Below, piece after piece: positions 2,608 through 29,051 of a DNA stretch of 36,175 nucleotides. Each line of letters starts with the position of its first letter. The stretch's first letter is position 1. Location: positions 1 to 36,175 of the forward strand of contig DASSSU010000018.1 of the NCBI GenBank assembly GCA_035708305.1. The letters are read 5' to 3'. The translations under genes were made by a program, and so were the position numbers. A model generated the notes under the pieces. That model searched no databases. It saw nothing but the letters and a program-made list of their open reading frames with translations, and was not told the origin of the DNA. The DNA comes from Minisyncoccota bacterium. Its GTDB lineage: Bacteria > Patescibacteriota > Minisyncoccia > Phycocordibacterales > DASSSU01.

Positions 2608-2613
2608 AGTTAT

Positions 2614-4967: not shown

Positions 4968-7240
4968 ACGTATTTTTGGATATATTTTATCTCATTAAGC
5001 ATATGCATTACTCCATGAACCAGAGGAGCAGGTAAAACCTTATCAAATTTTTTTCTCGAAGATGAATGTAGCTTATGGTTTTGAACTCCAATCGATAAAT
5101 GATTTTCTATGCGTGTATCTGGTATATCAAATTCATCATCCCCTACATGAACAGAAAGTATCTGTTTCCCGTATTGCTTTTTCAGTGTTTCTAAGCCAGT
5201 AAATTTACTACCATGTAAAGGATTAACAACTACTTTTAGTTCCCGTGTATTTGTGAAGTAATAGTATAAGTTAAATATCGACCAATCAATCTCTATCATA
5301 GAATCTTTGAGGATATTAAATTTGTACCCATCCCTGATATATAATGTGCCGTCACGTTCATGGAAGATGGAGATATTTTGCCTTACGAGTAACTCTTTAA
5401 GCTCTTGGAGATTCCCCAGATATTCTTTTGGAGCTAGGATTTTCTGTTTGTCCGATGCCGTGTCGTACAATACCGCACCATTTTCTGCCAATATGTAATC
5501 GAATTTCAAGGATGCATTAATCTCTTTTGCTTGACCAATGCTATTGTTTGTATTAAGAACAGTTACAAAATTGGGATTTATGTCTTTAACATAGTGCTGA
5601 ATTTGTGTAGCTTCCATAGCTAGCGGACTATGAATAGACTCTCTTAGGGTTCCATCTAAATCAAAAGAAAGAATGATAGGATTGTTATCCTTGATAGAAC
5701 AGCGTATCTTCTCATACTCTTTACCTAAGTAGTCATAAGCTCCTAGTTCACGAAATAAATCATGTATTTGTTCCGTCTTGGCATTGATACTAATGAAGAT
5801 ATTTAACAGGGCCTCTGTTTTGTTCTCTGTTTCAGCAGAGAATTTATAAGAAGTCATGTTGTCTAAAGCTACTTCAAAATCTAATATTTGGTTTAGTGAG
5901 TCAAGTAATATCTCTTTCGTGCGAGAACTTCCAGAACCGTTGATCTGAGTAACCGCATGTTTTACTTTCTTAATGTCTGTCCTTATCTCATTGGTTCTTT
6001 TTTGTGAAATATCTTTCAAGAATTTGGCAAAATACAAGCTATTGTTTTCCGATAATTTGATTAAGCAGCTGTATATTTGTGGGTCATTATCTCTTAATAA
6101 TGCTTCCACTATATGGGAAGGACTTGCAGCATCACCATTGTTTTTTCTTCGTCTAATATGTCTCGGTCCGGTTGCAATTTTTATTGCGTTTACCCCAAAT
6201 TTACTCCTCACTTGAGCAGAGATTACCAGGTCCTGAAGAGAAAAAGGCAGGACGAGTAGATTACTTATCGCTGTTGCGCGTATACTAAATGCACCCCCGT
6301 TTATTGTGAATGTGTGAGCAGAAGTTTGATTGTTTCTGCTCCTTGTATAAAGATTTGAAATCGGTTTTCGATCAACAAAACTGCGCAAAATTGTGTCTAC
6401 TTTTTCTTCAAGTTCTTTCCTGTTTGCAATAGTAGTATTTTCCTCGTTGTCAAAAATATTGAAAGGTGTAAAACGGGATTGTGACAATGAAGTAGAGAGC
6501 ATTTGTAGTATATCAACGAAATCACGGAACATTTTGTAAGGCGATCCTGTGTGATGAGTAACCCTGCCGGAAACAACCTGACTGTTTGGAAGCGAGAATA
6601 ACAACTCTCTCTCCTTGAAAAAATCAAAATCATTAACAATATATTTTCCGTCATTTTCGTCAAGTACTGAGTAATGGATGTCATCATCATGAAAAGTACA
6701 TATTGTTTGTTCAGGCTCAAAATTGTATTTTCCTATGGTGTATTGACTCATAAGGAGCGAGTAATTGAAAGCTCCAATTGTTCCACCAATATTCTTGAAT
6801 TCTTGTGAAATAAAGGAGATAAACTCTTCTTTGGGAAAAACTCTTGGGTTTAATTTCTCAATTTGTTCAAAAATTTTATTTCGGTCGTGTATATGATAGA
6901 TGTGAACGTTGATAAATTCGGGAGCAGTTGAGTTCAAACGATTGACTAGTGCATCAAATACAGTGGCGATTTCTCCCTCTTTCGTATCGTTGATAATGTT
7001 AATGATTATTTTATCTCGTTGGACGCTATATTTTTGAACATTGTCGAAGATAGAAATAATAAGACGTTCAACCAAATATGGATAGTTACAAGCGCGGATA
7101 TTAACAATTTCATTCTTTATTTCAAAAAGAGTCCCGTATCGTTTTTTTATAAAAATCTCCACCTGCCCTAAGTCAAAAGAATTTAAGTAGATATCTCCGA
7201 ATTCATCATAATTTTGTTTTCCCATAGTTACAGGTTTCAT
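4964..7240 (-). CDS. Large two-part protein. The ~500-aa N-terminal region has unassigned function (acidic DDD/DxD-containing, possibly a glycosyltransferase-like synthase). It is fused to a C-terminal HAD-IIB (Cof/MPGP/SPP-type) phosphatase domain.
   Basis: 758 aa. HAD motifs are visible: ILSFDLDGTL (motif I DxDGT), ILAENGAVLYD, and VHVGDDEFDIPD (motif IV-like). Both start and stop overlap neighbouring genes by 4 nt (ATGA). Confidence 0.6.
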   Translation of the reverse strand: MKPVTMGKQNYDEFGDIYLNSFDLGQVEIFIKKRYGTLFEIKNEIVNIRACNYPYLVERLIISIFDNVQKYSVQRDKIIINIINDTKEGEIATVFDALVNRLNSTAPEFINVHIYHIHDRNKIFEQIEKLNPRVFPKEEFISFISQEFKNIGGTIGAFNYSLLMSQYTIGKYNFEPEQTICTFHDDDIHYSVLDENDGKYIVNDFDFFKERELLFSLPNSQVVSGRVTHHTGSPYKMFRDFVDILQMLSTSLSQSRFTPFNIFDNEENTTIANRKELEEKVDTILRSFVDRKPISNLYTRSRNNQTSAHTFTINGGAFSIRATAISNLLVLPFSLQDLVISAQVRSKFGVNAIKIATGPRHIRRRKNNGDAASPSHIVEALLRDNDPQIYSCLIKLSENNSLYFAKFLKDISQKRTNEIRTDIKKVKHAVTQINGSGSSRTKEILLDSLNQILDFEVALDNMTSYKFSAETENKTEALLNIFISINAKTEQIHDLFRELGAYDYLGKEYEKIRCSIKDNNPIILSFDLDGTLRESIHSPLAMEATQIQHYVKDINPNFVTVLNTNNSIGQAKEINASLKFDYILAENGAVLYDTASDKQKILAPKEYLGNLQELKELLVRQNISIFHERDGTLYIRDGYKFNILKDSMIEIDWSIFNLYYYFTNTRELKVVVNPLHGSKFTGLETLKKQYGKQILSVHVGDDEFDIPDTRIENHLSIGVQNHKLHSSSRKKFDKVLPAPLVHGVMHMLNEIKYIQKYV

Positions 7241-7881
7241 TGGTTAAGCATGAAATGGTTCGGCTCAAGACAATGTCCGCCAATCGGTCCCTCAACATAT
7301 TTTAAGACGTATTTCGTGAACTCAAGATGTCCGAGTTTAGTATATCCGTCATTGTATGTTTTGTTTGCGAGTGTATAGACGATATCAAAATCAAGCTCGT
7401 GTTCATCGCAGTATTGGTGGATACGTTTGTTAAGCAAAATTGCTTCGCGGTAAATTTCAGTGTCCCATAATTTCATCGCTTCGGTATTTTCCGGCTTTTC
7501 AGTCGTGACAGTTTCAACGCCAAACGCAGAGAAGTGGGCTGCCACCTCTTCAGCACGCTCACCGCCAAAGAATTTAACAAATGTTTTAATGCCTTCGGCA
7601 AGATGTGGATGTTTACCACGCACTGGCGAATGCACCGCTTCCTTACCACACTTGCTGGTTGTACCCACAGGCACAGTGGAGTGAATAACGATCACACTCG
7701 CTCCCGTATCATGTTTGTATTTTTGTACTAATTCAACAAACTGGTCTGAGTACGGAAAGCAGATATGAATAATATCTGCTTTCCGTACTTCATCATTTTT
7801 ATCAATGCCATCGCATTGCAATACTTCCGCGAGGCCAGTTCCAATTTCACCCATTCCAATCACTAAATGTTTTTTCATCAT
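7237..7881 (-). CDS. NAD(P)-binding Rossmann oxidoreductase. The N-terminal fold resembles UDP-glucose/GDP-mannose dehydrogenase (VIGMGEIG, HSTVPVGTT); a GGHCLEPN cysteine motif is present.
   Basis: 214 aa, which is short for a full UDPGDH. Starts with MM, 4 nt after the XRE gene stop. Confidence 0.5.
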   Translation of the reverse strand: MMKKHLVIGMGEIGTGLAEVLQCDGIDKNDEVRKADIIHICFPYSDQFVELVQKYKHDTGASVIVIHSTVPVGTTSKCGKEAVHSPVRGKHPHLAEGIKTFVKFFGGERAEEVAAHFSAFGVETVTTEKPENTEAMKLWDTEIYREAILLNKRIHQYCDEHELDFDIVYTLANKTYNDGYTKLGHLEFTKYVLKYVEGPIGGHCLEPNHFMLNQ

Positions 7882-7885
7882 ATAA

Positions 7886-8092
7886 TCACTTCAATAACTC
7901 ATCACTTGTAACCCCCAACGCCCCTGCCAGCCGCTCAATCGTCGCAAGGGTAGGATTACCGTTTCCCGATTCAATATTACTTACTTGTGCACGATCAAGC
8001 CTTGTCGCACGGCAAATATCGCCTTGCGACATATTCTTTTGCTCACGAATACGTTTGATATTTTTACCGAGTCGTTTTGTTGGGGTATCCAC
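7886..8092 (-). CDS. XRE-family helix-turn-helix transcriptional regulator. Probable GTG start giving ~68 aa.
   Basis: The sequence KRLGKNIKRIREQKNMSQGDICRATRLDRAQVSNIESGNGNPTLATIERLAGALGVTSDELLK is a classic HTH_XRE helix pattern. The track ORF runs back to 8326 through the inverted repeat, which is implausible. An internal ATG at 8032 would cut off helix 1, so the GTG at 8092 is preferred. Confidence 0.6.
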   Translation of the reverse strand: MDTPTKRLGKNIKRIREQKNMSQGDICRATRLDRAQVSNIESGNGNPTLATIERLAGALGVTSDELLK

Positions 8093-8150
8093 GTCACATA
8101 TTTTACTCTTATTGTTAAGTATAACAATAGTGTGGTATATTTCAATAGCG
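8093..8150 (-). promoter_or_regulatory. Candidate sigma70-like promoter, TTGAAA-16-TATACT read on the minus strand. An overlapping palindromic operator ttgtta-N4-taacaa sits at 8111..8126. Likely autoregulation of the XRE operon.
   Basis: On the minus strand: ttgaaa tataccacactattgt tatact taacaataagag...GTG. The inverted-repeat half-sites TTGTTA/TAACAA were seen directly. Confidence 0.4.
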
Positions 8151-8160
8151 CCTTTACACC

Positions 8161-8276
8161 CGCGCCCATTTCCTTTTCCATTCTGCGGTGGAGGGGGACA
8201 GGGGGAGGAGCCGCAAAAAAGATGCAAAGGGAAATGGGCGCGGGATGCGGCGCACGAGGTGAGCGGAGGCGTCTCG
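8161..8276. repeat. Right copy of the perfect 116-bp inverted repeat. The terminal palindrome ggcgtctc-gtca-gagacgcc spans the repeat boundary at 8266..8285.
   Basis: Exact reverse complement of 1..116. Followed by ~300 bp of GC-rich non-coding sequence. Confidence 0.9.
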
Positions 8277-8573
8277 TCAGAGACGCCGGAGCGAGCCGAG
8301 GGCGCACCGAAGCGTAGGACCACCACGCGATCGGAGCGTACGAGTTAATCAGAAGCCACCACGCGCTTCCGCGCGTGCGAAGTGGGTTCGAGCAAAGGTT
8401 AGTATTTCTGCACAAAACGAGTGCGGCGAGTTTTTGTTCCCGAGAGGAAGCCGCTCTACGGCTTCCGTGCAGGAATCGAAGCCCGATTGAGCGGATTTTG
8501 TGAGTGAAACGAAACAAAATCTCCAATCGGGATACTGCTCCTGTAAGGAGAGATCCTTGCCGAGGGCACCAAC

Positions 8574-8922: not shown

Positions 8923-9315
8923 TTATGGCATTTGGAGTTTTTCCTGGATTTTCTCGACAATTTCGCTCAGTTCGGTTGCGCTTTTTACATAATAGTCCGC
9001 GCCGAGGGATTTCACTTCTTTGATTTTGTCCGGGTCGGAAACATTGGAGAGAACAATAACCTCAAGTGAAGCAAGATTCTCGTCCGATTTAATTTCACGC
9101 AAAATAGAAATGCCGTCCAGCTCGGGAAGAATCACATCGAGCAATGCCAAATCGTGGGTCGCCCGCTTGGCAACTTCCAGTCCTTCTTTTCCGTTTCGGC
9201 AGATAGTGACCTCGTATCCTTCTTGTCGCAGACGTTCATCAAGTACCCGGGCGAGAAAACTATCATCTTCAACGAGAAGAATAGAGCCGGAATTTTTCAC
9301 GCTTTCTTCATCCAT
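8923..9315 (-). CDS. Stand-alone response regulator, receiver (CheY-like) domain only
   Basis: 130 aa. ILLVEDD...LALLDVILPELDG...K receiver motifs. No output domain and no histidine kinase in the window. Confidence 0.85.
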   Translation of the reverse strand: MDEESVKNSGSILLVEDDSFLARVLDERLRQEGYEVTICRNGKEGLEVAKRATHDLALLDVILPELDGISILREIKSDENLASLEVIVLSNVSDPDKIKEVKSLGADYYVKSATELSEIVEKIQEKLQMP

Positions 9316-14928: not shown

Positions 14929-14957
14929 TTGACAAGTAACGATTTTTATGTATAAAT
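14929..14957 (+). promoter_or_regulatory. Candidate sigma70 promoter TTGACA-16-TATAAAT upstream of the SPFH gene
   Basis: The -10 overlaps the ATG at 14948. If this promoter is used, the true start is more likely the in-frame TTG at 15005, which is preceded by GGAG at 14990..14993. Confidence 0.4.
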
Positions 14958-16087
14958 ACAGACCGGAACAGTTCCTTGACATCAATTATGGAGCGGCAAA
15001 GATCTTGAGCAGATTACAAAAATTCTACCTTGGATCTTTAATTGTCTTTCTTGCCATATCTTTTTTAGGAGGTTTCCTCTGGTTTCTTGGTGTACAAGCT
15101 GGACAGGTAATTCTTGGAATCAACATTGCCTATTTTGCCTCTAGCCTTCGAATTGTAAAACCAGATCAAGTCGGAGCACTCATCGTACTTGGATATTCTA
15201 TCTCCAGTCTTCAACGGGGGCTACACTTTGCTCCTTTCTTCATTAGTGACTTCCCAACAGAACCACTCCCCGTGATAGAGGAAGAATTCCCAGGAGAACC
15301 GGAAAGAGTTTGGCACGAGGATGCACCCATTCCCACTATCCCAGAAATTAATAGGTTCGGAAAAATGGTCCCTTACTATGTTTATCCAGTACGGGTTACT
15401 ACCGGACGTCCTGACTATGGGAATGAGGGGGGTGGCGCATCAACCGGGAATCCATTAGATATTCAAGGCACAGTAGAACCAGTGTTTTTTGTTCGTTTTC
15501 AGGTGAAATCACATGAGTACCTTGAAAAATTCATTCCAAACATTGGGACACTCTATGAAGTAGTGAGACAGATTCAAGACACGATGGTTCGTGTACTTAC
15601 CTCACAATTTAGCCAAAGAACCATACAGAAAATCATCGAGGACATTGATCAGATTAATACTGAACTCCAAAAAAAGATAGAAGAAATAACCGGAGACTGG
15701 GGTATTGAAGTGCGGGACGCCTATATAAAAACGGTCGGACTCAGTCATACGCTCAATACCGCTCTTCGAGATGTCGGCGTAGAAAAAACCAAAGCACTGG
15801 CGACTATCATTGCAGCAGAAGCAGAGAAAAAGAAACTCATCGAAGAAGGAACTGGTAACGCAAAGGCCAGGGAGCTTTTGTTGCAAGGAGAAGGAGCTGG
15901 TATTAAGTCCATAGCAGACGCGCTGCAGATACAGCAAGGAGAGGTGATGGAACTTATCCGCACAAAAGCTGCACAAGATGCACTCAAAGAAATTGATCAC
16001 CTTAATATGTTTACTGGCAACATGCAGGGTTTGCCTGGACTTTTCGGTCTTGCCGATGCGTTAAAAAATAGAGGAACGTCAGAATGA
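14948..16087 (+). CDS. SPFH/band-7 (stomatin/prohibitin-like) membrane protein with a ~90-aa insertion. The start may be the TTG at 15005.
   Basis: N-terminal transmembrane helix, then an SPFH core: GTLYEVVRQIQDTMVRVLTSQFSQRTIQKI...GIEVRDAYIKTV...ALATIIAAEAEKK. Overlaps the next gene by 4 nt. Confidence 0.8.
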   Translation: MYKYRPEQFLDINYGAAKILSRLQKFYLGSLIVFLAISFLGGFLWFLGVQAGQVILGINIAYFASSLRIVKPDQVGALIVLGYSISSLQRGLHFAPFFISDFPTEPLPVIEEEFPGEPERVWHEDAPIPTIPEINRFGKMVPYYVYPVRVTTGRPDYGNEGGGASTGNPLDIQGTVEPVFFVRFQVKSHEYLEKFIPNIGTLYEVVRQIQDTMVRVLTSQFSQRTIQKIIEDIDQINTELQKKIEEITGDWGIEVRDAYIKTVGLSHTLNTALRDVGVEKTKALATIIAAEAEKKKLIEEGTGNAKARELLLQGEGAGIKSIADALQIQQGEVMELIRTKAAQDALKEIDHLNMFTGNMQGLPGLFGLADALKNRGTSE

Positions 16088-17001
16088 CAAATTTTTGGGT
16101 AGCAATGATTGGTGGGTTTCTTCTATTTATCTCCTGGAGAAAAAGAACTGAAATTAAAGGTTCCCTAAGTTCTCTTACAGAATACTTTAAGAAAATAAGA
16201 GAAGGACGGGCTTCCGAGAGTTCTCCAAATCAAAAATGGAAATTTCGCCTCTTTCGCCTCTTAAGGTGGATATTCTTACTCCTGTTTACACTCAGCATGA
16301 TCAGGATCATTTGGAAGGTTTGGGTAGATACCATCTACCCTTCTTTGAATCCTGAAGCACAGGTTCACATTGCACATTTGGGAAACCAAGCAAAGAGTTT
16401 TGTGTTTGGTGATCCACTTACCTTTCTTGCTGTCCTCGTGGTGTTCATTGGAATCTTGGTCTGGCTTCTCAAGGGAAGTGCAGCATCCTCGAACGGAGCT
16501 GGTTCCGGCGGCGGGCTGAGTGCAAGTGATATCGCAAGGGTGAGAGCAAGGCGAAGAGTACATGAAGCAAAGCAGATATCAAGGATATCGTGGGGCTTCT
16601 TGGTTCTCCTTGTCATCGCTGCTTGCTTTGGACTGTGGTACACCCACTATCATGACGCAACCGCATGGAACCAGATCTCAAACTGGATGCGACACGGCGG
16701 TATAGATACCCGGAAGATTCCGAACTATGAACCCATAATGCTCATACTCCTGACGATCGGAATCTTGCTGATTTTCGTCGAAGGATACACCCGCCATGTG
16801 GGCATAATGTGCCTGGTGGCAACCGCCATTCTCTTTGTTCTTGGGATCGTGCTGGTGATCGTCATGGGGACATGGATCACACTCCTGCTCCTTGCGGGAA
16901 TCATCCTGATGGTGTTTGGATTTCCCGCTGCTCTGGTGGGTTTTCCACTGTTTTTGGTGGGGATCTTTCTCATTCTTCCTCTCCTGTTGGTTTTCTTGTA
17001 G
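16084..17001 (+). CDS. Polytopic membrane protein, operon partner of the SPFH protein (NfeD-like role possible)
   Basis: 305 aa. Multiple hydrophobic helices, a Gly/Ser-rich linker, ATGA overlap with the SPFH gene. Confidence 0.65.
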   Translation: MTNFWVAMIGGFLLFISWRKRTEIKGSLSSLTEYFKKIREGRASESSPNQKWKFRLFRLLRWIFLLLFTLSMIRIIWKVWVDTIYPSLNPEAQVHIAHLGNQAKSFVFGDPLTFLAVLVVFIGILVWLLKGSAASSNGAGSGGGLSASDIARVRARRRVHEAKQISRISWGFLVLLVIAACFGLWYTHYHDATAWNQISNWMRHGGIDTRKIPNYEPIMLILLTIGILLIFVEGYTRHVGIMCLVATAILFVLGIVLVIVMGTWITLLLLAGIILMVFGFPAALVGFPLFLVGIFLILPLLLVFL

Positions 17002-17032: not shown

Positions 17033-17067
17033 AAAAACCCGAAGCACGAAGCTTCGGGTTTCTTTTT
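17033..17067. terminator. Bidirectional rho-independent terminator: A5-cccgaagc-acgaa-gcttcggg-TTTCTTTTT
   Basis: Between the convergent genes ending at 17001 (+) and 17113 (-). Confidence 0.65.
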
Positions 17068-17112: not shown

Positions 17113-17364
17113 TTAGGTAAACAGCGTAACAATCGTGTCAACGATGAAGTTCATGATGGCGAACACAGAAAGCATGATCACCATCCCGATCACTCCCCAC
17201 AGCATGTGCCGAGAAGCGTTCTGTCTGTTCTCCGGTGTGTCATTAAACAGAAACTGCACAATTCCGATAAAGAAGACGACCACCGCAAGAGCAAACAGGA
17301 GAACAATCAACGGATTTACGATCACGTGATTGATCTTGTTGATCAGATCGGTGATATTGTCCAT
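17113..17364 (-). CDS. Small two-transmembrane membrane protein, paralog 1 of a five-member family (no signal peptide)
   Basis: 83 aa. TM1 LIVLLFALAVVVFFIGIV, a short basic loop, TM2 LWGVIGMVIMLSVFAI. The pattern is shared with the four upstream paralogs. Confidence 0.6.
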   Translation of the reverse strand: MDNITDLINKINHVIVNPLIVLLFALAVVVFFIGIVQFLFNDTPENRQNASRHMLWGVIGMVIMLSVFAIMNFIVDTIVTLFT

Positions 17365-17398
17365 AGGAATATGCTAGAAAGTTCAAACAACCATTGGG

Positions 17399-17791
17399 TT
17401 ACGCACCCGGGATAGTTGGCGTCAATTGCTGAACGTTTGTAGGAGCAGTTACAGTTGTTGCACCGCCGTTGTTTACGCCAAACGTGTCTTGTAAAATCTT
17501 TACCAATCCCCAGACAGACACAATCACAAAAAGAGCAATAATACCCCAAATCATGATTGAAATACCTTCCGATCGTGCACCGGCATCTCCTGACTTCAGG
17601 ATAAACATTGCCAATCCATAGAAGAAGAAAAGAACAGCAAGTGTGATGAGGATCGGGATAATAATGTTGATAAGGTTGCCGATAATTCCAAGGATACCTG
17701 CGAGCCCACCACTACCACCTGACGTTTGTGCAAAAGCAAATCCCGGAGTAACCGCCAAAAGCGCTAACGCTCCATACAGAATTTTTTTCAT
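17399..17791 (-). CDS. Small two-transmembrane secreted/membrane protein, paralog 2 (signal peptide MKKILYGALALLAVTPGFAFA)
   Basis: 130 aa. Conserved core ILITLAVLFFFYGLAMFILKSGDAGARSEGISIMIWGIIALFVIVSVWGLVKILQDTF. Confidence 0.65.
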   Translation of the reverse strand: MKKILYGALALLAVTPGFAFAQTSGGSGGLAGILGIIGNLINIIIPILITLAVLFFFYGLAMFILKSGDAGARSEGISIMIWGIIALFVIVSVWGLVKILQDTFGVNNGGATTVTAPTNVQQLTPTIPGA

Positions 17792-17967
17792 ACGTAATTC
17801 GATAAAAAATAATAATTTGCGACCTAATATTAATTTATCCGAAACGCGCGCAAATTGGGAGCGTTTCTTTATTCAACATCATAAAATGTTCATCCAAATT
17901 CCGCAACTCAAACTGTGGATAATCTCTTTCTAAGAGGAAGCAGGCGACAAAACAACTCTCAGTTACC

Positions 17968-18243
17968 TTATACACTCGGCGCCGGAAAGACCTGAACTGA
18001 TTGATTGACGTTGAAGGTATCCTGCAAAACAAACACAAGCCCCCAAAGAGAGACCATCACAAACAGTGCAATGATACCATAAATCATCAGGTTGATTCCC
18101 TGTTTCCTTGATTCTTCATTCCCTGCCGCGAACATAAAACGAACGATACCATAGAAAAAAAACAGAACCGTGAGTGCAATAAGAAGTGCAATGATGGTCT
18201 GGAGAATGCTTCCAGCACTGTAGAGCAAACTGCTGATATCCAT
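17968..18243 (-). CDS. Small two-transmembrane membrane protein, paralog 3 (no signal peptide)
   Basis: 91 aa. LLIALTVLFFFYGIVRFMFAAGNEESRKQGINLMIYGIIALFVMVSLWGLVFVLQDTF. Confidence 0.65.
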   Translation of the reverse strand: MDISSLLYSAGSILQTIIALLIALTVLFFFYGIVRFMFAAGNEESRKQGINLMIYGIIALFVMVSLWGLVFVLQDTFNVNQSVQVFPAPSV

Positions 18244-18263
18244 AGAAGTAAAAAATAGAAAAA

Positions 18264-18635
18264 TTAAAAATCAGGAATTTGAGGAAGCGTGGAATATGTG
18301 GATCCAGCAGGACCAAAAACAGAATACTGGATGATCGCCACCAGCCCCCAAATAGAAATCATGACAAAAATAGCGATAATACCGTAGAGCATGTACTTCC
18401 CACCCTCGGTCCGCGCTTTCGGGTCTCCGGCAGAGAAAAGGTACTTTGCGATCCCCCAAAAAAAAGCCACCACTGAGAGCGCAATAAGAAGCGGAATAAC
18501 TGCCCCGATCATGCCCAGGAGGTTGTCCACCAAACCAGTAAAATCAATGGCAAAAGCAAAAAATGGAGTAAAGAGAGAAGCAAAAAGAAGAAAGGGCAAG
18601 AAATTTTTCTTTGAAGGTTTTTTATGTGTGTTCAT
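18264..18635 (-). CDS. Small two-transmembrane secreted/membrane protein, paralog 4 (signal peptide ...FTPFFAFA)
   Basis: 123 aa. LLIALSVVAFFWGIAKYLFSAGDPKARTEGGKYMLYGIIAIFVMISIWGLVAIIQYS. Confidence 0.65.
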   Translation of the reverse strand: MNTHKKPSKKNFLPFLLFASLFTPFFAFAIDFTGLVDNLLGMIGAVIPLLIALSVVAFFWGIAKYLFSAGDPKARTEGGKYMLYGIIAIFVMISIWGLVAIIQYSVFGPAGSTYSTLPQIPDF

Positions 18636-18661
18636 GGTTTTAATTACTCTGGTTACTTCCT

Positions 18662-19027
18662 CTACAACTGAGCGATGGTCTGAGCAATGGCATGCGCCAG
18701 AACTTTTGCTCCGAGAATAATCGCCGCGCCAATCACTACCGCCACAAAGGCGCTGCGAGCGCGTGTGAGCTTCTGCGTATCGCCCTGTGCGGTGATAAAC
18801 ATAAAGCCAGAGATAATGATAAAAATCACGATCACCGGGACCGCGATCTGTATCACGATAGTCAAAAGCGCGTCGATAAAGTCCGGAAGAGTGCTAATGC
18901 TTGTGAGAGGATTCTCAAAGGTCATTGCACCAGCAAAAAGCACGCTGGGGAAAAAGAGAGCGAGCAATGAAAGTAAAAAGTACCAAATATGCCGTGTTTT
19001 CTTTTTCCAATTTTGCAGCTTTTTCAT
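18662..19027 (-). CDS. Small two-transmembrane secreted/membrane protein, paralog 5 (most divergent). The start is taken at MKKLQNWKKK..., a signal-peptide-like N-terminus.
   Basis: The track ORF extends to 19108 and would overlap the solute-binding-protein gene by 44 nt. The ATG at 19027 gives a K-rich n-region, an h-region and an AGA cleavage-like site. Core VIVIFIIISGFMFITAQGDTQKLTRARSAFVAVVIGAAIILGAKVL. Confidence 0.55.
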   Translation of the reverse strand: MKKLQNWKKKTRHIWYFLLSLLALFFPSVLFAGAMTFENPLTSISTLPDFIDALLTIVIQIAVPVIVIFIIISGFMFITAQGDTQKLTRARSAFVAVVIGAAIILGAKVLAHAIAQTIAQL

Positions 19028-19064
19028 AAAAAATATTGTAACCGCTTCCGTAAGAAAAAACAAT

Positions 19065-20429
19065 TTATAGCTGTGCATTAGCGCTCGGCAGCGCTCCACC
19101 ACCCGCACTCACCGCCGGAGGAGGTGCAACACTCTTCAGAAGAAGATCCATTTCTTTTTGCATCATCTGAATCGCACCAGCTACGGTAAGCGCTCCTGAG
19201 TTCACATTATCGATCGCTTCCTGGAAAATGCGCGATGTCTGGTCTGGATCCGGGTCACGCCACCCGCGGCTGATGATGGCGGAATTGTAGAAAACTGTTC
19301 GGAAAGCATCCGTCGGCCTGGTTGCATAGAGATCGCGGCGAACTGGCGGGAGATACGTCGCCTGAGAAAGCGCCTGCGAGAACTTCGGCCCGGCGAGGGT
19401 AAGTGCCACGATGTAGGCAGAGTTGATGTTGTGAGACTGCTTCAAAATCGCCACTCCAAAAATCTTGCCGATAGTTGCGGAGAACTTTCCATCCCGTACC
19501 TGCGGCACCTGGGCGACATCGAAGTCGAGAAGCGGGTTCTTGCGCTGGATATCCGCATACTCGCTCGCATAGCCGAAGTAGATCGCGAGCTTTTGGTTGG
19601 TAAACATATCCAAAGAATCCGGCAAGGCGCGATTCCAGGAGTAGATATCAGGCTGGGTCGGATCGGCGAAATTGGTAAAAAAAGTCAGAGCATCACCTGC
19701 GGGAGGAATACTACCGCCCTTATCTCCGATGAGCGTGGCAGTTGTTACTCCCTGATTCAACTCCACGATCGGGTTGCCCAACTGAAGCATCAGCATCGCC
19801 AAAATATCTTTTGCATGAGTGACGTTTTGGTATTCTCCAAGTGCTACCGCGCTTTGCGTGATGTTGTCATCCTGTGTTTTTTCCGTAAGAATCGGCGCAA
19901 GCTTATAGAGCTCATCCCAATATTGAGGGGGACGGACAATTCCCTTTTGCGCAAACATGTCACGGTTCCAATACATCACCATCGGATCTATATAAAACGG
20001 TAGAGCAAGAATACCGTCCGAACGAAGGTAGATTTCTCCCTGTTGGAGATAGGCGTTTCGAAAATCACGCTCGGAAATAACACTGAACGGGATAACCTGC
20101 AGACTCTGCTGGCGCTTCAGAATCAAATCCTGTGGGATCAGTACCAGATCAGGACCCTGGCCGATCGCCAGAGCCTCCACCAGATCGTTATCAAAATTTG
20201 TGGCGTCTTTCTCCACATACTTCACCTGATTCGGGGGATAAAATTTTCCGATCAGCTGACTCATGGACTGCTGCGGAAAGGTTCCCCAGATGGTAACCGT
20301 TCCTTGGACATCCCCGCCTTCTTTCGCAGCTTTATGTGGTTTTGGAATAAGTCCAGAAAAAACCAAAATGCCGCCGACAAAAAACGCGATACAAATTCCT
20401 GTCACAAGTAATGGAAAACCGGTTTTCAT
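19065..20429 (-). CDS. Extracellular solute-binding protein family 1 (sugar-type ABC transporter substrate-binding protein) with an N-terminal transmembrane anchor. Orphan: no permease or ATPase is adjacent.
   Basis: 454 aa. MalE-like features TVTIWGTF, ALPFYIDPMVMYWNRDMF, PPQYWDEL. Confidence 0.8.
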   Translation of the reverse strand: MKTGFPLLVTGICIAFFVGGILVFSGLIPKPHKAAKEGGDVQGTVTIWGTFPQQSMSQLIGKFYPPNQVKYVEKDATNFDNDLVEALAIGQGPDLVLIPQDLILKRQQSLQVIPFSVISERDFRNAYLQQGEIYLRSDGILALPFYIDPMVMYWNRDMFAQKGIVRPPQYWDELYKLAPILTEKTQDDNITQSAVALGEYQNVTHAKDILAMLMLQLGNPIVELNQGVTTATLIGDKGGSIPPAGDALTFFTNFADPTQPDIYSWNRALPDSLDMFTNQKLAIYFGYASEYADIQRKNPLLDFDVAQVPQVRDGKFSATIGKIFGVAILKQSHNINSAYIVALTLAGPKFSQALSQATYLPPVRRDLYATRPTDAFRTVFYNSAIISRGWRDPDPDQTSRIFQEAIDNVNSGALTVAGAIQMMQKEMDLLLKSVAPPPAVSAGGGALPSANAQL

Positions 20430-20956
20430 GCTTGTTTTTCAAAAATAATTCCGTAATGAAATGCTCCCGCCGGGATATGCTTTCGATAAGAAAAACCTCC
20501 CTGCTCACAGAGAAGCCGCGCATCACGGGAGTCTAAAACATTTTCCGGATGCGGACCCAAATGTCCAAAAGATTCGCTCCAGTCGATCAAAAGAAGTCGA
20601 CCGCGAGGCTTGAGCGTGCGCCTGATTTCCTGCAGCAGAACAGTCTTGTACATACACTGAAAAAAGACGTTGGATGCGATCGCGAAATCCAAAATACCGT
20701 CTCCAATCTTTGACCCGCCCGGCATTTCAAGATCTCCGTGCAAAGTATCCACGTGAGCAATGCCTTGATCTGAAAGCGTATTACGGAGTCTCACAAGAAG
20801 GTTTTTCTGCACATCAATGGCATAAACCCGGCCGTAATCCTTGACCACCCTTGCCGCCTCAAGGGCATATGCACCGGAGCCGGTTCCAAAATCGCCGACA
20901 TGCATTCCCTCAAGAACACCCGCACGCATAATATTTTCTCGTGGATTGGTAAACAT
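20426..20956 (-). CDS. Class I SAM-dependent methyltransferase (motif I VGDFGTGSG)
   Basis: 176 aa. Overlaps the solute-binding-protein gene by 4 nt. No in-frame ATG, GTG or TTG exists upstream before a TGA, so the ATG at 20956 stands. Confidence 0.8.
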   Translation of the reverse strand: MFTNPRENIMRAGVLEGMHVGDFGTGSGAYALEAARVVKDYGRVYAIDVQKNLLVRLRNTLSDQGIAHVDTLHGDLEMPGGSKIGDGILDFAIASNVFFQCMYKTVLLQEIRRTLKPRGRLLLIDWSESFGHLGPHPENVLDSRDARLLCEQGGFSYRKHIPAGAFHYGIIFEKQA

Positions 20957-25157: not shown

Positions 25158-28100
25158 CTACAAAGACGAATTCAAAGGAGCCGTTTCGCCCTTGGCGGAT
25201 ACGTCAGATGGGTCCGTTTGGTCTGAGTTTCCACTTTGCAGCGTTTCGGTGTCTTTTTGGGTTGTGGTTGTTTGATCCAGCGAGATCGTGGTATCTGGAA
25301 CAGTGGCGTTCGTCACTATATTTTCATCAGTACCAGAACCAGTATCAACATCGGACGGTTTGTTTTCCGTGCTTTCTTCCGTCAAATCATCACCTCCACT
25401 TGCAGCTTTTATTTCCGCGTCACTCGAACTTGCCGCTGTCTCTGATTTTTCTGAATCGCCATCTGGTGTCGTCGTGGCAAGTGTTTTTGAAGTTTGAGAA
25501 GCTTCGGAAGTCTGAGAAGCCACTGAGGTTTGGCTTACATGGGCGTTTTCCAGAAGTATTTTAAGCTGACTTTCATTCACACAGGTATCCCCCACACAAA
25601 GCTCATCCTTCACGTGTACATCATCGGCAAAAATACTCTTGAAGTACCCCACCACAGCTTTCATCGAATCCGTCACGAATGAAGCCGTGCGGGCAAAGAA
25701 GTTTTGGTTCTCCTTGTTCGCACTTGTTACCAGTGCATCCGCTTCCGCCTCTGAAAGATGAACAGACGGAACCCACGAAACATGTACAAACATCATCACC
25801 GTGTCCGTGCCGTTGGAATCTTCAAGGGCAGTTCCCAGGATGGTACCGGTGGAGGTAGCTTTCACGGCGATGCCGGGGGTGGTGGAAGAGAGGGTGAGGA
25901 GATCACCGGGCTTTACCTCGCCGTTGGTGTTTGAGAACTTCACCGGAACACGGCCAGAGAGAGCAACCGGGCGAGTGCTCGTACCGGTTTCATCACCCAA
26001 GAGAACTCCAGGAGCGGTAGAGACAATTCCCAGGATTCTCTGTGCTTCTTCGCTTCCTGCCTTTACGAGTTTTCCGTCCTGGTCAATTGCTACCACATCG
26101 CCTGCTTCAAGAGAGTGATCATTGACAGGATAATTTTCCGCCAAGTCTGAGGCCGTGAAACTTGAAGAGTCGCCGTAGACCACGCCCGCGGTGAGAGTGC
26201 CCTGGCATTTTGTGCCGCCGCCATTATCCGCACAGATGGCGCCGTTTGCTGCGGCGATGTTACCACTCGCGACAGTGAGTTTGGCGAAAGGAGTAGTGGT
26301 TCCGATGCCGATATTGCCGGTTACCTGCAAATTTCCTGGAGTTGTTCCATCAAAACTCCCAGCAATCTGAAAGGTATTTGCCGAGCTTCTTGAAAGAAAG
26401 ATGTCGCGAGTGCTATTTCCGGATCCAACGCCAAAAGCACCATTTGAGTAGAAAATAGCTCGATCATAACTTTCTGTCGGAACACCCACAGAAAATGCTC
26501 GCCCACTGCCGGCAGAGTTTGCCAGATCAGCCTGAAATTCGGCAGTGTTATCGGACGCAACCACCTTCAACTGAGTATTTGGGTTTGAGAGAGTGTCTGG
26601 TGTCGTCCCTATCCCCACCTTGCCAGTGATATAGGCTTGTCCATTCACCACAAGTGGATAAGCCGGAGTAGTAGTCCCGGTATCAATGCCGATATTACCG
26701 GTAGAGAGATCACCGTAAATCGTATTGCCGATATTCAACTGATAGTTCGCTGTCGGATCAGCCGCGTTGGTTTCCGAACCGATGAAAATGTTGTTTGACC
26801 CGGTCGTAATGTTGTAGCCGGCCTTGTAACCCATCGCGACATTTTTTGTGGCTGCGTTTATAGCATTGTAAAGCGCGCTTGAGCCAAAAGCAGAATTGTA
26901 ACTTCCCCACGTGTTGTTGAGCAGCGCTTCATATCCCAAACCGGTGTTCTCCACACCATCCGTCGTGTGCCCAAGCGCGTAACTCCCCAAAGCAAGATTG
27001 GCAGTTCCGTCAGTGCTGTTGGTAAGCGCGCCGGTACCGAGTGCAACGTTGTCATTCCCCGTGATATTGCTCTGGAGCGCGCCGGTACCGAGTGCCAAGT
27101 TGGTGGCACCGGTGGTGTTGTCGTGAAGCGCACTGGTTCCAATAGCAACGTTTTCATTGCCGGTCGTTACAGAAGAAAGCGCACCAATCCCCATTCCAAG
27201 GTTACTTTGTCCGTCACTTCCCGTCATGTGCGACAGACTTTCGCCACCACCGCCGATAAAAAGCGAACCATAAAAAGATGCTTGATCCGGAACATAGAGT
27301 GCGTCCTGACCTCCTATCGCAAGAACTTCTGTAGAGGATGCGAGATTTAAATTTCCATCGATCGTGAGGCCACCCGAAATATTTACCGGAGAATTAAAAT
27401 AGGAAGCAGAACTGGTACCAGTATCAAATCGAAGATTTCCGGTACTCTCCAACCAAAGCTGTCCTGAAGCAGTATAAATCTGCTGATCCTGATTCCATGC
27501 GTCATTCCCATTCCCGAAAGAAAGTCCTCCGCGAACAAACGGATCAACAAGATCTGATTGATATCCGAGATGTGAAGTGCCAGAAACTTGAACCGTTGTT
27601 CCGTTAGAAAGCTCATATTTTCCATCAACGCCATAGCTTCCCACCATGTAACTCGTCAAAGCACCGGTATCAAAGCCGGTCACCAACACGTCCGAAGAAT
27701 TATCCGAATCTACCGTAACATTCGATGCACTGATAAGTGGAGCCTGACCGGTGGACATGTCTAACTTAATACCATGACTGTTCTCCGCCTGAATCCAGGT
27801 ATTCGCGAAGTTAGGAGTTGCGCTGTCCACTTCAAGTGCGTATCCGTTTGTGGCGGGACCAGAAATATTCACATTCGTAAAATAGTTTGCCGCGGTATAA
27901 CTTCCGCTTACCGGATAATAAATCCCGACAGCAACACCATTTGTCGAAACAGTATTTGCTTCCACCACCAATCCGCTGAAAAAGTTGTACGCCACTGGCT
28001 GGCTCGTTCCCGCTTCAAGACGAAGGCCGTAATCCAAGAAATCACGTATGTCGATATTATTATAAAAATCACGATACGCACCACCGGCAAGATAAAGACC

Positions 28101-29051
28101 GGTCGATCCTGTTCCATTCGGGCCGCTCCCCTCCATGCCTATATTTTCCAAACGGAAATTTACCACCAGTCCTGTGTCATTTCCCACTTGGATAACCGGC
28201 TTGGAAGTGTCGTATGGAACAAGCTTGTTTGGTGTGTTGTACTCCCCGGAAGATTCTCCCAAGATGTGGATGTTGTCCTGTGTAATCACCAAGTTAACGG
28301 CCCATTCACCGTTTGGAACGTAGATCGTGCCGCCGGCAGTTCCGAGTGATGCAATCGCGGCATTGAAGGCGGCCGTATCATCTGTGGTGCCGTCACCTTT
28401 CGCACCGAACGCCCGCACGTCCACCCACGGACCCTTGGTGATCAGATCATCCGCCGTTACCGTGCCGGTAATTTCCGCATTACCACCCACCGTAAGCCTT
28501 TGCGATGGAGTGGAAGTGCCAATTCCAACATTGCCGGCTGTATACGAAATGTTTGAACCCGAGACTACCCAAGGAGATGAACTTGAAGAACTGTCACTCG
28601 ACGGCGAAAGTGAGGCTGACGCAACCTGATTGGTCACGGAGTTTCCACTTGCAACCGTGCTCATGTTGGAATCACTCTGAAGTGCAATGAGCGTGCGAAG
28701 GCGATTTTCGGAGGCGAGGAGGTCGGATTGCGAAACACCATGATCGACACTGACACCCCAAGAAGCATTTTGATTCGCAAGCTGTGGGAGTGCTTCAGAA
28801 ATGGAAAGCAAAATCCCATTCAGTGCACTGACCAAAATGGATGTAGAGTGTGCAAGAGCATTCAAGCGGGCTTCAAGATCTTGCTCTTGAATGCTTTGAC
28901 CAGACGCCGAAGACATGGTGGAGTTAGCATTTTCGGGGGCGGAAGCAAAGGCAGCACCGGGGAAAAGAAAAGCAAGCACCAAAATCGCCAAAACCCCTTG
29001 TGTGGATACAAAGAAGAGAAAAGCTTTTTGTGCTCGTTTAATAAACCACAT
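25158..29051 (-). CDS. Giant secreted/surface protein. It has a signal peptide, a pectate-lyase-3/tailspike-like right-handed beta-helix domain, and many YadA-head/tail-fibre-like NxAxGxxAL repeats. It ends in a conserved C-terminal domain and an acidic S/T/D-rich tail.
   Basis: 1297 aa. VDVRAFGAKGDGTTDDTAAFNAAIASLGTAGGTIYVPNGEW is the Pectate_lyase_3 signature. Repeats NVAIGTSALHDNTTGATNLALGTGALQSNITGNDNVALGTGAL.... Confidence 0.75.
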   Translation of the reverse strand: MWFIKRAQKAFLFFVSTQGVLAILVLAFLFPGAAFASAPENANSTMSSASGQSIQEQDLEARLNALAHSTSILVSALNGILLSISEALPQLANQNASWGVSVDHGVSQSDLLASENRLRTLIALQSDSNMSTVASGNSVTNQVASASLSPSSDSSSSSSPWVVSGSNISYTAGNVGIGTSTPSQRLTVGGNAEITGTVTADDLITKGPWVDVRAFGAKGDGTTDDTAAFNAAIASLGTAGGTIYVPNGEWAVNLVITQDNIHILGESSGEYNTPNKLVPYDTSKPVIQVGNDTGLVVNFRLENIGMEGSGPNGTGSTGLYLAGGAYRDFYNNIDIRDFLDYGLRLEAGTSQPVAYNFFSGLVVEANTVSTNGVAVGIYYPVSGSYTAANYFTNVNISGPATNGYALEVDSATPNFANTWIQAENSHGIKLDMSTGQAPLISASNVTVDSDNSSDVLVTGFDTGALTSYMVGSYGVDGKYELSNGTTVQVSGTSHLGYQSDLVDPFVRGGLSFGNGNDAWNQDQQIYTASGQLWLESTGNLRFDTGTSSASYFNSPVNISGGLTIDGNLNLASSTEVLAIGGQDALYVPDQASFYGSLFIGGGGESLSHMTGSDGQSNLGMGIGALSSVTTGNENVAIGTSALHDNTTGATNLALGTGALQSNITGNDNVALGTGALTNSTDGTANLALGSYALGHTTDGVENTGLGYEALLNNTWGSYNSAFGSSALYNAINAATKNVAMGYKAGYNITTGSNNIFIGSETNAADPTANYQLNIGNTIYGDLSTGNIGIDTGTTTPAYPLVVNGQAYITGKVGIGTTPDTLSNPNTQLKVVASDNTAEFQADLANSAGSGRAFSVGVPTESYDRAIFYSNGAFGVGSGNSTRDIFLSRSSANTFQIAGSFDGTTPGNLQVTGNIGIGTTTPFAKLTVASGNIAAANGAICADNGGGTKCQGTLTAGVVYGDSSSFTASDLAENYPVNDHSLEAGDVVAIDQDGKLVKAGSEEAQRILGIVSTAPGVLLGDETGTSTRPVALSGRVPVKFSNTNGEVKPGDLLTLSSTTPGIAVKATSTGTILGTALEDSNGTDTVMMFVHVSWVPSVHLSEAEADALVTSANKENQNFFARTASFVTDSMKAVVGYFKSIFADDVHVKDELCVGDTCVNESQLKILLENAHVSQTSVASQTSEASQTSKTLATTTPDGDSEKSETAASSSDAEIKAASGGDDLTEESTENKPSDVDTGSGTDENIVTNATVPDTTISLDQTTTTQKDTETLQSGNSDQTDPSDVSAKGETAPLNSSL

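What the first reader, a model, noticed from the sequence alone, without database searches (positions are those of the whole stretch)
17113..19027. Tandem array of five divergent paralogous small two-transmembrane proteins (pilin-like, VirB2/TrbC topology)
Five consecutive minus-strand genes (83, 130, 91, 123 and ~121 aa) share one architecture: TM1 (..LLIALxVLFFFYG..), a short positively charged loop (SAGDPKARTEGG / AAGNEESRKQG / KSGDAGARSEG), TM2 (..YGIIALFVxVSxWGLVxxLQDTF), then a short tail. Paralogs 2, 4 and 5 have Sec signal peptides; paralogs 1 and 3 do not. The signal-peptide-containing members resemble T4SS pilins (VirB2/TrbC), but no VirB4/VirD4 or other secretion ATPases are in the window. 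The strong divergence among neighbouring copies suggests diversifying selection on a surface-exposed or interaction module. For a host-associated reduced-genome organism this could be a novel adhesion, pilus or immunity-like system.
Basis: partly seen in the sequence, partly recalled or inferred. Interest (0 to 1): 0.75.

Follow-up and report, generated by a model that had tools for sequence, protein, structure and literature searches.

The report
Patescibacterial VirB2-like pilin gene array
Five neighbouring small membrane-protein genes are a real tandem array of type IV secretion pilin-like proteins, a feature already described in ultrasmall Patescibacteria; this copy is a typical member whose paralogs are ancient and ordered rather than rapidly diversifying.

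Summary
Five minus-strand genes (17113-19027) encode homologous two-helix membrane proteins. All five pass the curated cutoff of Pfam PF18895 (T4SS_pilin), and the first transcribed one also passes PF04956 (TrbC/VirB2). The contig is from a Candidatus Paceibacterota MAG.

Such arrays are already published. Wang 2023 reported an essential pilin series in Southlakia epibionticum. Quinonero-Coronel 2025 reported 441 VirB2 arrays of 2-11 genes with about 25% mean identity. This is therefore a new member of a known kind.

Three points may go beyond those papers:
- In 80 related loci the array has a conserved order: TrbC-like type A, then 2-4 type B, then one short leaderless type C. Each window paralog has many closer relatives in other genomes than in its own array, and pilin orthologues are no more diverged than neighbouring genes. 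This argues for ancient subfunctionalised paralogs, not diversifying selection.
- The array sits in a housekeeping context (gyrA, methyltransferase, solute-binding-like protein, pilins). No VirB4 or VirD4 was found within about 10 kb in any locus.
- Type C passes the NCBIfam cutoff for a Mycoplasma ICE pilin-like family.

The likely function is as subunits of the patescibacterial T4SS pilus or conduit. That is inferred, not shown.

The parts
18662..19027 (-). Pilin type A, first gene of the array: 121 aa, TrbC/VirB2-like, with a predicted Sec signal peptide (cleavage around residues 32-34) followed by a helical hairpin.
   Evidence: PF04956 TrbC 32.9 bits (cutoff 27.9), PF18895 32.0 bits and DUF6112 30.2 bits. 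NCBI 121-aa protein named 'DUF6112 family protein [Candidatus Paceibacterota bacterium]'. AF2 pLDDT 89.8 with helices 3-34, 47-79 and 84-120. Its orthologues are the first or an early gene in other arrays.
18264..18635 (-). Pilin type B, copy 1: 123 aa, signal peptide (AFA|I after residue 29), two TM helices and a Pro/Thr-rich C-terminal tail.
   Evidence: PF18895 31.5 bits. Three hydrophobic segments. Best foreign hits occupy middle positions of arrays.
17968..18243 (-). Pilin type B, copy 2: 91 aa, leaderless, two TM helices and a short tail.
   Evidence: PF18895 35.7 bits. Two hydrophobic segments. A 20-bp gap to the upstream stop leaves no room for a leader. 56-59% local identity to the 130-aa copy.
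17399..17791 (-). Pilin type B, copy 3: 130 aa, signal peptide (AFA|Q after residue 21), two TM helices and a 30-aa Gly/Thr/Pro-rich tail. A 176-bp spacer precedes it.
   Evidence: PF18895 30.7 bits. Its best foreign hits are the penultimate gene in 31 of 40 arrays. Exact copies occur on two Logan contigs with the same neighbours.
17113..17364 (-). Pilin type C, last gene: 83 aa, leaderless bare helical hairpin with a conserved N-P motif before helix 1.
   Evidence: PF18895 41.7 bits. NCBIfam NF045849 'Mbov_0395 family pilin-like conjugal transfer protein' 42.4 bits against cutoff 40; 35 of 36 orthologues also match it. AF2 pLDDT 86.3 with helices 2-40 and 44-82. Orthologues are the last gene in 65 of 70 cases.
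17035..17061 (.). GC-rich hairpin flanked by A and T runs: a probable bidirectional intrinsic terminator that closes the pilin array and the convergent SPFH/membrane-protein pair.
   Evidence: 11-pair stem listed. On the minus strand the same stem is followed by TTGTTTG (read).
19065..20429 (-). Conserved upstream partner: a 454-aa membrane-anchored solute-binding-protein-like gene (SBP_bac_1), probably co-transcribed with the array.
   Evidence: PF01547 60.3 bits. A homologue lies immediately upstream on the same strand in 62 of 69 related loci, with a median gap of 3.5 bp to the first pilin ORF. Functional linkage is inferred from this only.
20426..20956 (-). SAM-dependent methyltransferase whose stop overlaps the SBP-like start by 4 bp; possibly the first gene of the same transcription unit.
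   Evidence: Methyltransf_11/25 hits. Homologues were found in 52 loci and lie mostly at position -2. A promoter-like site lies at 21314-21286 on the minus strand (consensus match only).

Best explanation
This is a chromosomal array of five VirB2/TrbC-superfamily (Pfam T4SS_pilin) pilin-like genes in a Paceibacteria-type Patescibacterium. It belongs to the published class of patescibacterial VirB2-like pilin arrays.

Proposed mechanism (inferred):
- The proteins insert into the cytoplasmic membrane as N-out/C-out helical hairpins. Three would use Sec with signal-peptide cleavage; the two leaderless ones would insert directly.
- A VirB4-family ATPase and T4SS membrane components encoded elsewhere in the genome would extract them and assemble them into a pilus or conduit at the contact with the host cell.
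- The five genes are not interchangeable variants. They represent three ancient, order-conserved subtypes: A (TrbC-like, first), B (2-4 copies, middle, with variable exposed tails) and C (one short leaderless copy, last). That pattern suggests distinct structural roles, such as initiating or minor subunits against bulk subunits.

Shown: homology, subtype structure, conservation, genomic context. Inferred: dependence on a T4SS, filament formation and subunit roles.
For: - Family: PF18895 is above cutoff for all five and PF04956 for type A. Type C is above the cutoff of a Mycoplasma ICE pilin-like NCBIfam.
- The three subtypes are mutually homologous by hhalign.
- AF2 models are confident helical hairpins.
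- Taxon: all 80 best related loci come from Patescibacteria, and more than 560 matches were found. NCBI labels the contig Candidatus Paceibacterota.
- Every related locus carries a same-strand array of 2-7 such genes.
- Order is conserved as A(1-2) B(2-4) C(1): 54 of 66 complete arrays end with C and 59 of 66 have exactly one C.
[quoted passage not shown] 441 VirB2 arrays occur in 383 assemblies, VirB4 is present in 2,417 of 3,035 assemblies, and the pilin gene lies away from virB4 in about 800 of 1,948 VirB4-positive assemblies (PMC12102498).
Against: - No VirB4, VirD4 or other recognised T4SS gene lies in the 36-kb window, and no VirB4/VirD4 Pfam family appeared among the large flanking ORFs of 80 related loci. 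The link to a T4SS is therefore by homology only.
- Whether this genome has VirB4 could not be checked.
- Profiles of the three subtypes find no solved conjugative pilin at significance; the best is pKM101 TraM at E = 0.16.
- Fold searches return only generic hairpins.
- No patescibacterial T4SS pilus has been observed, and the role of the T4SS is called 'completely unknown' in PMC11665869.
- The tight, conserved coupling to an SBP-like gene is not a feature of known T4SS pilin loci.
Confidence: 0.65

Rival explanations
1. The proteins are VirB2-derived but have been exapted to work independently of the T4SS. In this reading they form a membrane complex with the co-transcribed SBP-like protein, for example an uptake or anchoring module that captures host-derived solutes.
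For: - An SBP_bac_1-like gene lies immediately upstream on the same strand in 62 of 69 loci, with a median gap of 3.5 bp.
- No ABC permease or ATPase and no T4SS gene were identified among the flanking genes examined in the window or the relatives.
- The array is embedded in conserved housekeeping synteny next to gyrA.
Against: - The whole region is syntenic, so adjacency alone is weak evidence of a shared function.
- Homology points to T4SS pilins.
- In Saccharimonadia the equivalent array lies inside the T4SS cluster and is essential together with it.
- There is no precedent for VirB2-like proteins acting with an SBP.
Confidence: 0.15
2. The multiplicity exists for surface variation. The paralogs would be alternative, interchangeable pilins under diversifying selection, used to match different host strains or to evade recognition. 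This is the first reader's idea, and the 2025 paper suggests it by analogy with Bartonella and Anaplasma.
For: - Identity between neighbours is low.
- Type B copy number varies from 1 to 5 between genomes.
- Type B C-terminal tails are low-complexity and differ between copies.
- PMC12102498 suggests host-range versatility.
Against: - Subtypes and their order are conserved across lineages labelled Kaiser-, Campbell-, Vogel-, Zambryski- and Taylorbacteria.
- Each paralog has dozens of closer relatives in other genomes than in its own array.
- Pilin orthologues are no more diverged than the neighbouring genes.
- Types A and C are nearly always present (type A once or twice, type C exactly once in 59 of 66 arrays), which is not cassette-like behaviour.
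Confidence: 0.12
3. The proteins are unrelated small two-TM proteins, such as holins, bacteriocin-immunity proteins or toxin-related membrane peptides, that hit pilin models only through hydrophobic composition.
For: - Small two-TM proteins attract weak, composition-driven hits; many sub-threshold matches to unrelated membrane families appear.
- Fold searches are non-specific.
Against: - Five independent hits lie above curated cutoffs, plus one above an NCBIfam cutoff.
- Non-hydrophobic motifs are conserved: N-P before helix 1, and Gly/Arg positions in and around the loop.
- No holin family was hit.
- No phage, lysis, toxin or bacteriocin genes were recognised nearby.
- The chromosomal context is stable across hundreds of genomes.
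Confidence: 0.03

Closest known systems
VirB2-like pilin arrays of Patescibacteria (Wang et al. 2023, S. epibionticum SEML1 T4SS cluster; Quinonero-Coronel et al. 2025, 441 arrays of 2-11 genes)
   Same: - Tandem PF18895/PF04956 genes in a Patescibacterium.
- Structurally alike but sequence-divergent copies. The published mean identity is 25% with a maximum of 54%; here identities run from about 28% (global) to about 59% (local, between two type B copies).
- A mixture of Sec-leader and other forms.
   Different: - The published essential array lies inside the T4SS cluster, and the 2025 survey centred on virB4 neighbourhoods and found arrays most abundant in Microgenomatia and Saccharimonadia.
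- This array is Paceibacteria-type. No VirB4 or VirD4 family was found within about 10 kb, and it lies downstream of gyrA, a methyltransferase and an SBP-like gene.
- The A-B-C subtype order and the SBP linkage are not mentioned in the parts of those papers I read.
TrbC/VirB2 conjugative pilins of diderm T4SS (Pfam PF04956: Agrobacterium VirB2, RP4 TrbC, pKM101 TraM)
   Same: - A small pro-pilin with a long signal peptide and two hydrophobic helices joined by a short polar loop.
- Type A passes the PF04956 cutoff.
   Different: - Four of the five genes do not reach PF04956.
- There is no significant sequence match to any solved pilin.
- The host is thought to be a monoderm, according to PMC12102498.
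- No adjacent virB3-virB11 genes are present.
- Cyclisation or acetylation, lipid-bound filament formation and dependence on VirB4 are untested.
Mbov_0395 / MMCAP2_0565 pilin-like conjugal transfer protein of Mycoplasma ICEs (NCBIfam NF045849)
   Same: - Leaderless two-helix protein of about 80 aa.
- Window type C scores 42.4 bits against a cutoff of 40 over the full model, and 35 of 36 orthologues match.
- Both belong to wall-poor or monoderm lineages. That Mycoplasma ICE T4SSs are of the MPF-FATA type is my own knowledge, not tested here.
   Different: - There is no ICE context here: no integrase, relaxase, VirD4 or VirB4 nearby.
- The gene is chromosomal and vertically conserved.
- The other four paralogs fall below that cutoff.
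Tandem VirB2 paralogs of Bartonella and Anaplasma virulence T4SS
   Same: Multiple divergent virB2 copies in tandem in a host-dependent bacterium, cited as an analogy in PMC12102498.
   Different: Those copies are interpreted as antigenic or host-range variants. Here the copies fall into ancient, order-conserved subtypes that evolve at the same rate as neighbouring genes.

Membership tests
Pfam PF18895 T4SS_pilin | Whole-protein score at or above the curated gathering cutoff (26.6 bits) | tested here: met
   41.7, 30.7, 35.7, 31.5 and 32.0 bits for the five proteins.
Pfam PF04956 TrbC/VirB2 pilin | Whole-protein score at or above the gathering cutoff (27.9 bits) | tested here: inconclusive
   Met only by type A (18662-19108 ORF, 32.9 bits). 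The other four have no PF04956 hit at E <= 1. They are linked to type A by hhalign at 95.6-97% probability.
VirB2-type T4SS pilin (functional family) | Small protein forming a hairpin of two hydrophobic helices joined by a short polar loop | tested here: met
   Hydropathy. AF2 models with pLDDT 89.8 and 86.3 show helix-loop-helix.
VirB2-type T4SS pilin (functional family) | N-terminal signal peptide removed from a pro-pilin | tested here: inconclusive
   Three of five have a signal-like segment with an AxA motif and two have none. Cleavage itself cannot be tested here.
VirB2-type T4SS pilin (functional family) | Encoded with VirB4 and other T4SS components | tested here: not met
   No VirB4 or VirD4 Pfam family in any large ORF of the window. 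None appeared among the recurrent or large flanking ORFs of 80 related loci within +/-10 kb. Caveat: divergent components could escape Pfam, and only the top 25 of 48 families were listed.
VirB2-type T4SS pilin (functional family) | VirB4 present elsewhere in the same genome | not testable with these tools
   Only this 36-kb contig is available. The literature reports VirB4 in 2,417 of 3,035 Patescibacteria assemblies.
VirB2-type T4SS pilin (functional family) | Sequence or fold similarity to experimentally solved conjugative pilins | tested here: inconclusive
VirB2-type T4SS pilin (functional family) | Polymerises into an extracellular filament | not testable with these tools
   Needs multimer modelling, cryo-ET or biochemistry.
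Patescibacterial VirB2-like pilin array (PMC12102498, PMC10633639) | Two or more PF18895/PF04956 genes in tandem in a Patescibacteria genome, with low mutual identity | tested here: met
   Five tandem genes. Taxon. Identities are about 28-47% globally and up to about 59% locally, against a published mean of 25% and maximum of 54%.
Patescibacterial VirB2-like pilin array (PMC12102498, PMC10633639) | Location within or near the virB4 cluster (true of the essential S. epibionticum array) | tested here: not met
   The paper itself reports the pilin gene away from virB4 in about 40% of VirB4-positive assemblies.
NCBIfam NF045849 Mbov_0395 family pilin-like conjugal transfer protein | Score at or above the cutoff (40 bits), and an ICE context | tested here: inconclusive
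   Type C scores 42.4 bits over the full-length model, while the other four score 18-28 bits or have no hit. There is no ICE context in the window.
Holins or other lysis/immunity two-TM proteins | Match to a holin family, or adjacency to endolysin, phage or toxin genes | tested here: not met
   No such Pfam hit at E <= 1. All neighbours that could be assigned are housekeeping genes.

The most novel reading that the evidence does not exclude
In Paceibacteria, a vertically inherited operon embedded among housekeeping genes (methyltransferase, membrane-anchored SBP-like protein, pilin A, 2-4 pilin B, pilin C) encodes an ordered heteromeric VirB2-like filament. It is physically unlinked from virB4. 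The SBP-like protein would be a dedicated partner, either a receptor or tip for capturing host metabolites or an assembly factor. In that case the patescibacterial T4SS pilus would be a nutrient-acquisition organelle with defined minor and major subunits, not a set of antigenic variants. The leaderless type C subunit would share ancestry with the pilin-like proteins of Mollicutes ICEs, which would mean the pilins arrived with the monoderm (MPF-FATA) T4SS rather than being borrowed from diderm systems.
Probability: 0.15. Interest if true: 0.7.

Novelty: new member of a known kind. Interest (0 to 1): 0.35.

Why it matters
Patescibacteria form a large part of bacterial diversity and appear to live off host cells. 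In the one species tested genetically, the T4SS and its pilin series are essential, yet their role is unknown (PMC10633639, PMC11665869). This locus adds no new kind of system.

The comparative picture built around it does sharpen the question. The multiple pilins look like fixed, ordered subunit types: one TrbC-like, several bulk-type and one short leaderless. They are conserved across many Paceibacteria lineages and are tightly coupled to an SBP-like gene.

That gives concrete, testable hypotheses about subunit roles and about a link between the pilus and solute capture. It also argues against the default explanation of antigenic variation.

Tried and rejected
- Profile searches of the three subtypes against PDB sequences found no significant conjugative pilin.
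- tblastn of type C against 72,556 plasmids found no match.
- hhalign of the type C profile against pCF10 PrgF, a 75-aa leaderless two-TM protein, was not significant (Prob 1.7%), and PrgG is unrelated. The PrgF idea therefore stays only a lead from the paper's supplementary table.
- I tried to find specific Zambryski-, Kaiser- and Nomurabacteria pilin accessions in the paper's supplementary table, to see whether those genomes carry VirB4 elsewhere. They are not in the stored, truncated part.
- The first attempt to scan genomes with the five-paralog alignment failed because no stretch was conserved enough. The three type B paralogs worked.
- dN/dS among paralogs was not attempted, because synonymous sites are saturated at 28-47% protein identity. 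Orthologue-versus-neighbour identity was used instead.
- The holin/immunity reading was rejected.
- Rfam and tRNA scans of the window were empty.
Full report
**1. What is there**

The region 17113-19027 holds five consecutive minus-strand ORFs of 83, 130, 91, 123 and 121 aa. The last one is listed mechanically as 148 aa from a GTG at 19108. NCBI's protein for this very contig is the 121-aa form starting at the ATG at 19027.

A multiple alignment shows one shared layout:
- a short N-terminal segment;
- a hydrophobic helix;
- a short polar loop containing Gly, Asp/Glu and Arg/Lys;
- a second hydrophobic helix;
- a tail that is absent or Pro/Thr/Gly-rich.

Hydropathy gives three hydrophobic segments for the 130-, 123- and 121-aa proteins and two for the 83- and 91-aa proteins. 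The gaps in front of the two short genes are only 34 and 20 bp, so they have no missed leader.

The array ends at an 11-bp-stem GC-rich hairpin with T-runs on both strands (17035-17061). It shares this hairpin with a convergent SPFH/membrane-protein pair.

Four of the five loops are net neutral rather than positive. The window does contain SecA, although it has no VirB4 or VirD4.

**2. Family**

- All five proteins exceed the curated cutoff of Pfam PF18895 (T4SS_pilin).
- The first transcribed gene also exceeds the cutoffs of PF04956 (TrbC/VirB2) and DUF6112.
- The last gene exceeds the cutoff of NCBIfam NF045849, a pilin-like conjugal transfer protein of Mycoplasma ICEs (42.4 against 40 bits). 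35 of 36 of its orthologues also match.
- Subtype profiles are mutually homologous: hhalign gives 97%, 95.6% and 99.8% probability.
- AlphaFold2 models built from deep alignments are confident helical hairpins. Type A has pLDDT 89.8, with a leader helix followed by helices 47-79 and 84-120. Type C has pLDDT 86.3, with helices 2-40 and 44-82.

**3. Context in the window**

The surrounding genes that could be assigned are mostly housekeeping:
- a class I aminoacyl-tRNA synthetase, SecA, MurB, GyrA and RNase R;
- an MBL-fold hydrolase;
- a SAM methyltransferase;
- a membrane-anchored SBP_bac_1-like protein directly upstream of the array;
- an SPFH protein with a polytopic membrane protein, convergent downstream.

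No T4SS ATPase is present. No Rfam family or tRNA is present.

**4. Relatives**

A scan of one genome per GTDB species found more than 560 related stretches. The 80 best are all Patescibacteria, labelled Paceibacterota, Parcubacteria, or Kaiser-, Campbell-, Vogel-, Zambryski-, Taylor- and Niyogibacteria.

Every locus carries a same-strand tandem array of 2-7 such genes, most often five. Classifying each gene by its best window paralog reveals three deep subtypes with a conserved order:
- Type A is TrbC-like with a leader. It is the first gene in 55 cases and sits later in the array in 37 (66 complete arrays carry one copy in 42 cases and two in 19).
- Type B occupies the middle, usually in 2-4 copies.
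- Type C is about 88 aa and leaderless. It is last in 65 of 70 cases, and exactly one copy is present in 59 of 66 complete arrays.

The window is ABBBC, one of the commonest patterns.

Each window paralog has 49-111 foreign proteins that score above its best own-array paralog, and type A has no BLAST hit to its own neighbours at all. Across the same 38 genomes, the median identity of pilin orthologues to the window proteins is 40-46.5%. That is the same as the methyltransferase (41%), the SBP-like protein (39%) and the MBL-fold protein (45%); GyrA is 65.5%.

The divergence between neighbours is therefore old. It is not a sign of unusually fast or diversifying evolution.

**5. Synteny**

The order gyrA, (MBL-fold), small ORF, methyltransferase, SBP-like, pilin array recurs in most of the loci (GyrA in 61-62, cluster 0 in 71). 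The SBP-like gene is immediately upstream on the same strand in 62 of 69 loci, with a median gap of 3.5 bp.

Recurrent downstream genes are IF-2, RbfA, SPFH, ClpB, aminoacyl-tRNA synthetases and similar. Among 34 further large flanking ORFs, no VirB4 or VirD4 family appeared. In this lineage the array is thus a stable chromosomal operon with no recognisable virB4 within about 10 kb.

**6. What is already known**

- Wang et al. [quoted passage not shown]
- Quinonero-Coronel et al. 2025 (PMC12102498) used PF18895 and PF04956. They found VirB2-like genes in 1,948 VirB4-positive assemblies, with the pilin gene near virB4 in 1,135 of them. They also found 441 arrays of 2-11 genes with a mean identity of 25%, and suggested host-range versatility by analogy with Bartonella and Anaplasma.
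- A 2025 T4SS review repeats this and speculates about a pilus acting as a conduit (PMC12857230).
- The function remains unknown (PMC11665869).

The finding is therefore a new member of a known kind.

I did not find three things in the parts of those papers I read: the A-B-C order, the SBP linkage in Paceibacteria, and the match of type C to the Mollicutes ICE pilin-like family. The 2025 paper states that monoderm T4SS classes lack virB2 homologues. The NF045849 match hints that a leaderless pilin-like protein does exist in a monoderm ICE lineage.

The paper's supplementary table also lists triplets of 'VirB2 (T_virB2) + PrgF + PrgF' far from virB4. These may be the same arrays under another label. 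My single-sequence test with pCF10 PrgF was not significant, so this remains a lead.

**7. Mechanism**

Best-supported reading (confidence about 0.65):
- The five proteins are pilin-like subunits of the patescibacterial T4SS.
- They insert N-out/C-out into the membrane. The three with leaders use Sec, and SecA happens to lie in the window; the two leaderless ones insert directly.
- A VirB4-type machine encoded elsewhere assembles them into a filament or conduit at the host interface.
- The three conserved subtypes play different structural roles.

Only homology, architecture, conservation and context are shown. Assembly and function are inferred.

The main rival is exaptation into a T4SS-independent complex with the SBP-like protein (about 0.15). 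Surface variation as the reason for the multiplicity is disfavoured by the orthology and rate data (about 0.12). Holin or immunity readings are rejected.

**8. Verdict**

This is a real and biologically meaningful feature, but not a new kind of system. The claims of diversifying selection and novelty were not.

Interest is 0.35. The comparative observations (ordered subtypes, SBP coupling, separation from virB4, link to Mollicutes ICE pilin-like proteins) are modest additions worth recording.

Noticed in passing
window 19065-20956 (minus strand): A membrane-anchored SBP_bac_1-like protein (454 aa) and a SAM methyltransferase lie directly upstream of the pilin array; the methyltransferase stop overlaps the SBP-like start by 4 bp, and the SBP-like stop lies 38 bp before the first pilin's ATG. 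No ABC permease or ATPase is nearby. The SBP-like gene holds this position in 62 of 69 related loci.
   Followed up: partly
window 17113-17364, and type C orthologues in loci L004-L082: The short leaderless last pilin passes the NCBIfam cutoff for the Mycoplasma ICE 'Mbov_0395 family pilin-like conjugal transfer protein' (NF045849), and 35 of 36 orthologues match it. This sits awkwardly with the published statement that monoderm T4SS classes lack VirB2-like genes.
   Followed up: partly
Supplementary table of PMC12102498, e.g. GCA_000990275.1 genes 786-788: Triplets annotated VirB2 (T_virB2) + FATA_PrgF + FATA_PrgF occur far from virB4. They may be A-B-C-type pilin arrays labelled as PrgF. pCF10 PrgF (L083:19545-19772) is itself a 75-aa leaderless two-TM hairpin, but hhalign to type C was not significant.
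   Followed up: partly
window ~2000-7900: A low-GC stretch (0.34-0.40, against 0.43-0.51 over most of the rest) holds a carbamoyltransferase (2614-4368), a P-loop kinase-like protein (4347-4967), a 758-aa protein with no Pfam hit and only a weak Cof/HAD-like match (4964-7240), and a 214-aa protein with a weak NDP-sugar-dehydrogenase-like match (7237-7881). An HTH_3 regulator (7886-8326) lies just beyond it. This may be an acquired surface-glycan or modification island.
   Followed up: partly
window 25158-29051 (minus strand): A 1,297-aa ORF has only a short pectate-lyase-like (beta-helix) domain hit. It is a candidate large surface or adhesin protein of the kind reported as essential in Saccharibacteria.
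   Followed up: no
window 14948-17001 (plus strand): An SPFH/Band 7 protein overlaps by 4 bp with a 305-aa polytopic membrane protein of no known family. The pair is convergent with the pilin array and shares its terminator hairpin. In the 72 loci with a gene called after the array, that gene is convergent in 61, and SPFH-type clusters occupy the second position after it in at least 30 loci; the first convergent gene is not conserved in sequence.
   Followed up: partly
loci L006, L022, L027, L029 and others, first array position: At least 14 complete arrays begin with an extra pilin-like gene. It is picked up by the family HMM but not by BLAST with any window paralog (shown as '?'). This may be a fourth subtype that is absent from the window.
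   Followed up: no
window 17792-17967: A 176-bp spacer separates the second and third type B genes, whereas the other junctions are 20-34 bp. An internal promoter is possible; no terminator-like site was found there on the minus strand.
   Followed up: no
window 8923-9315 (minus strand): A stand-alone response-regulator receiver domain protein (130 aa) lies immediately downstream of secA. No histidine kinase was found among the ORFs scanned in the window.
   Followed up: no
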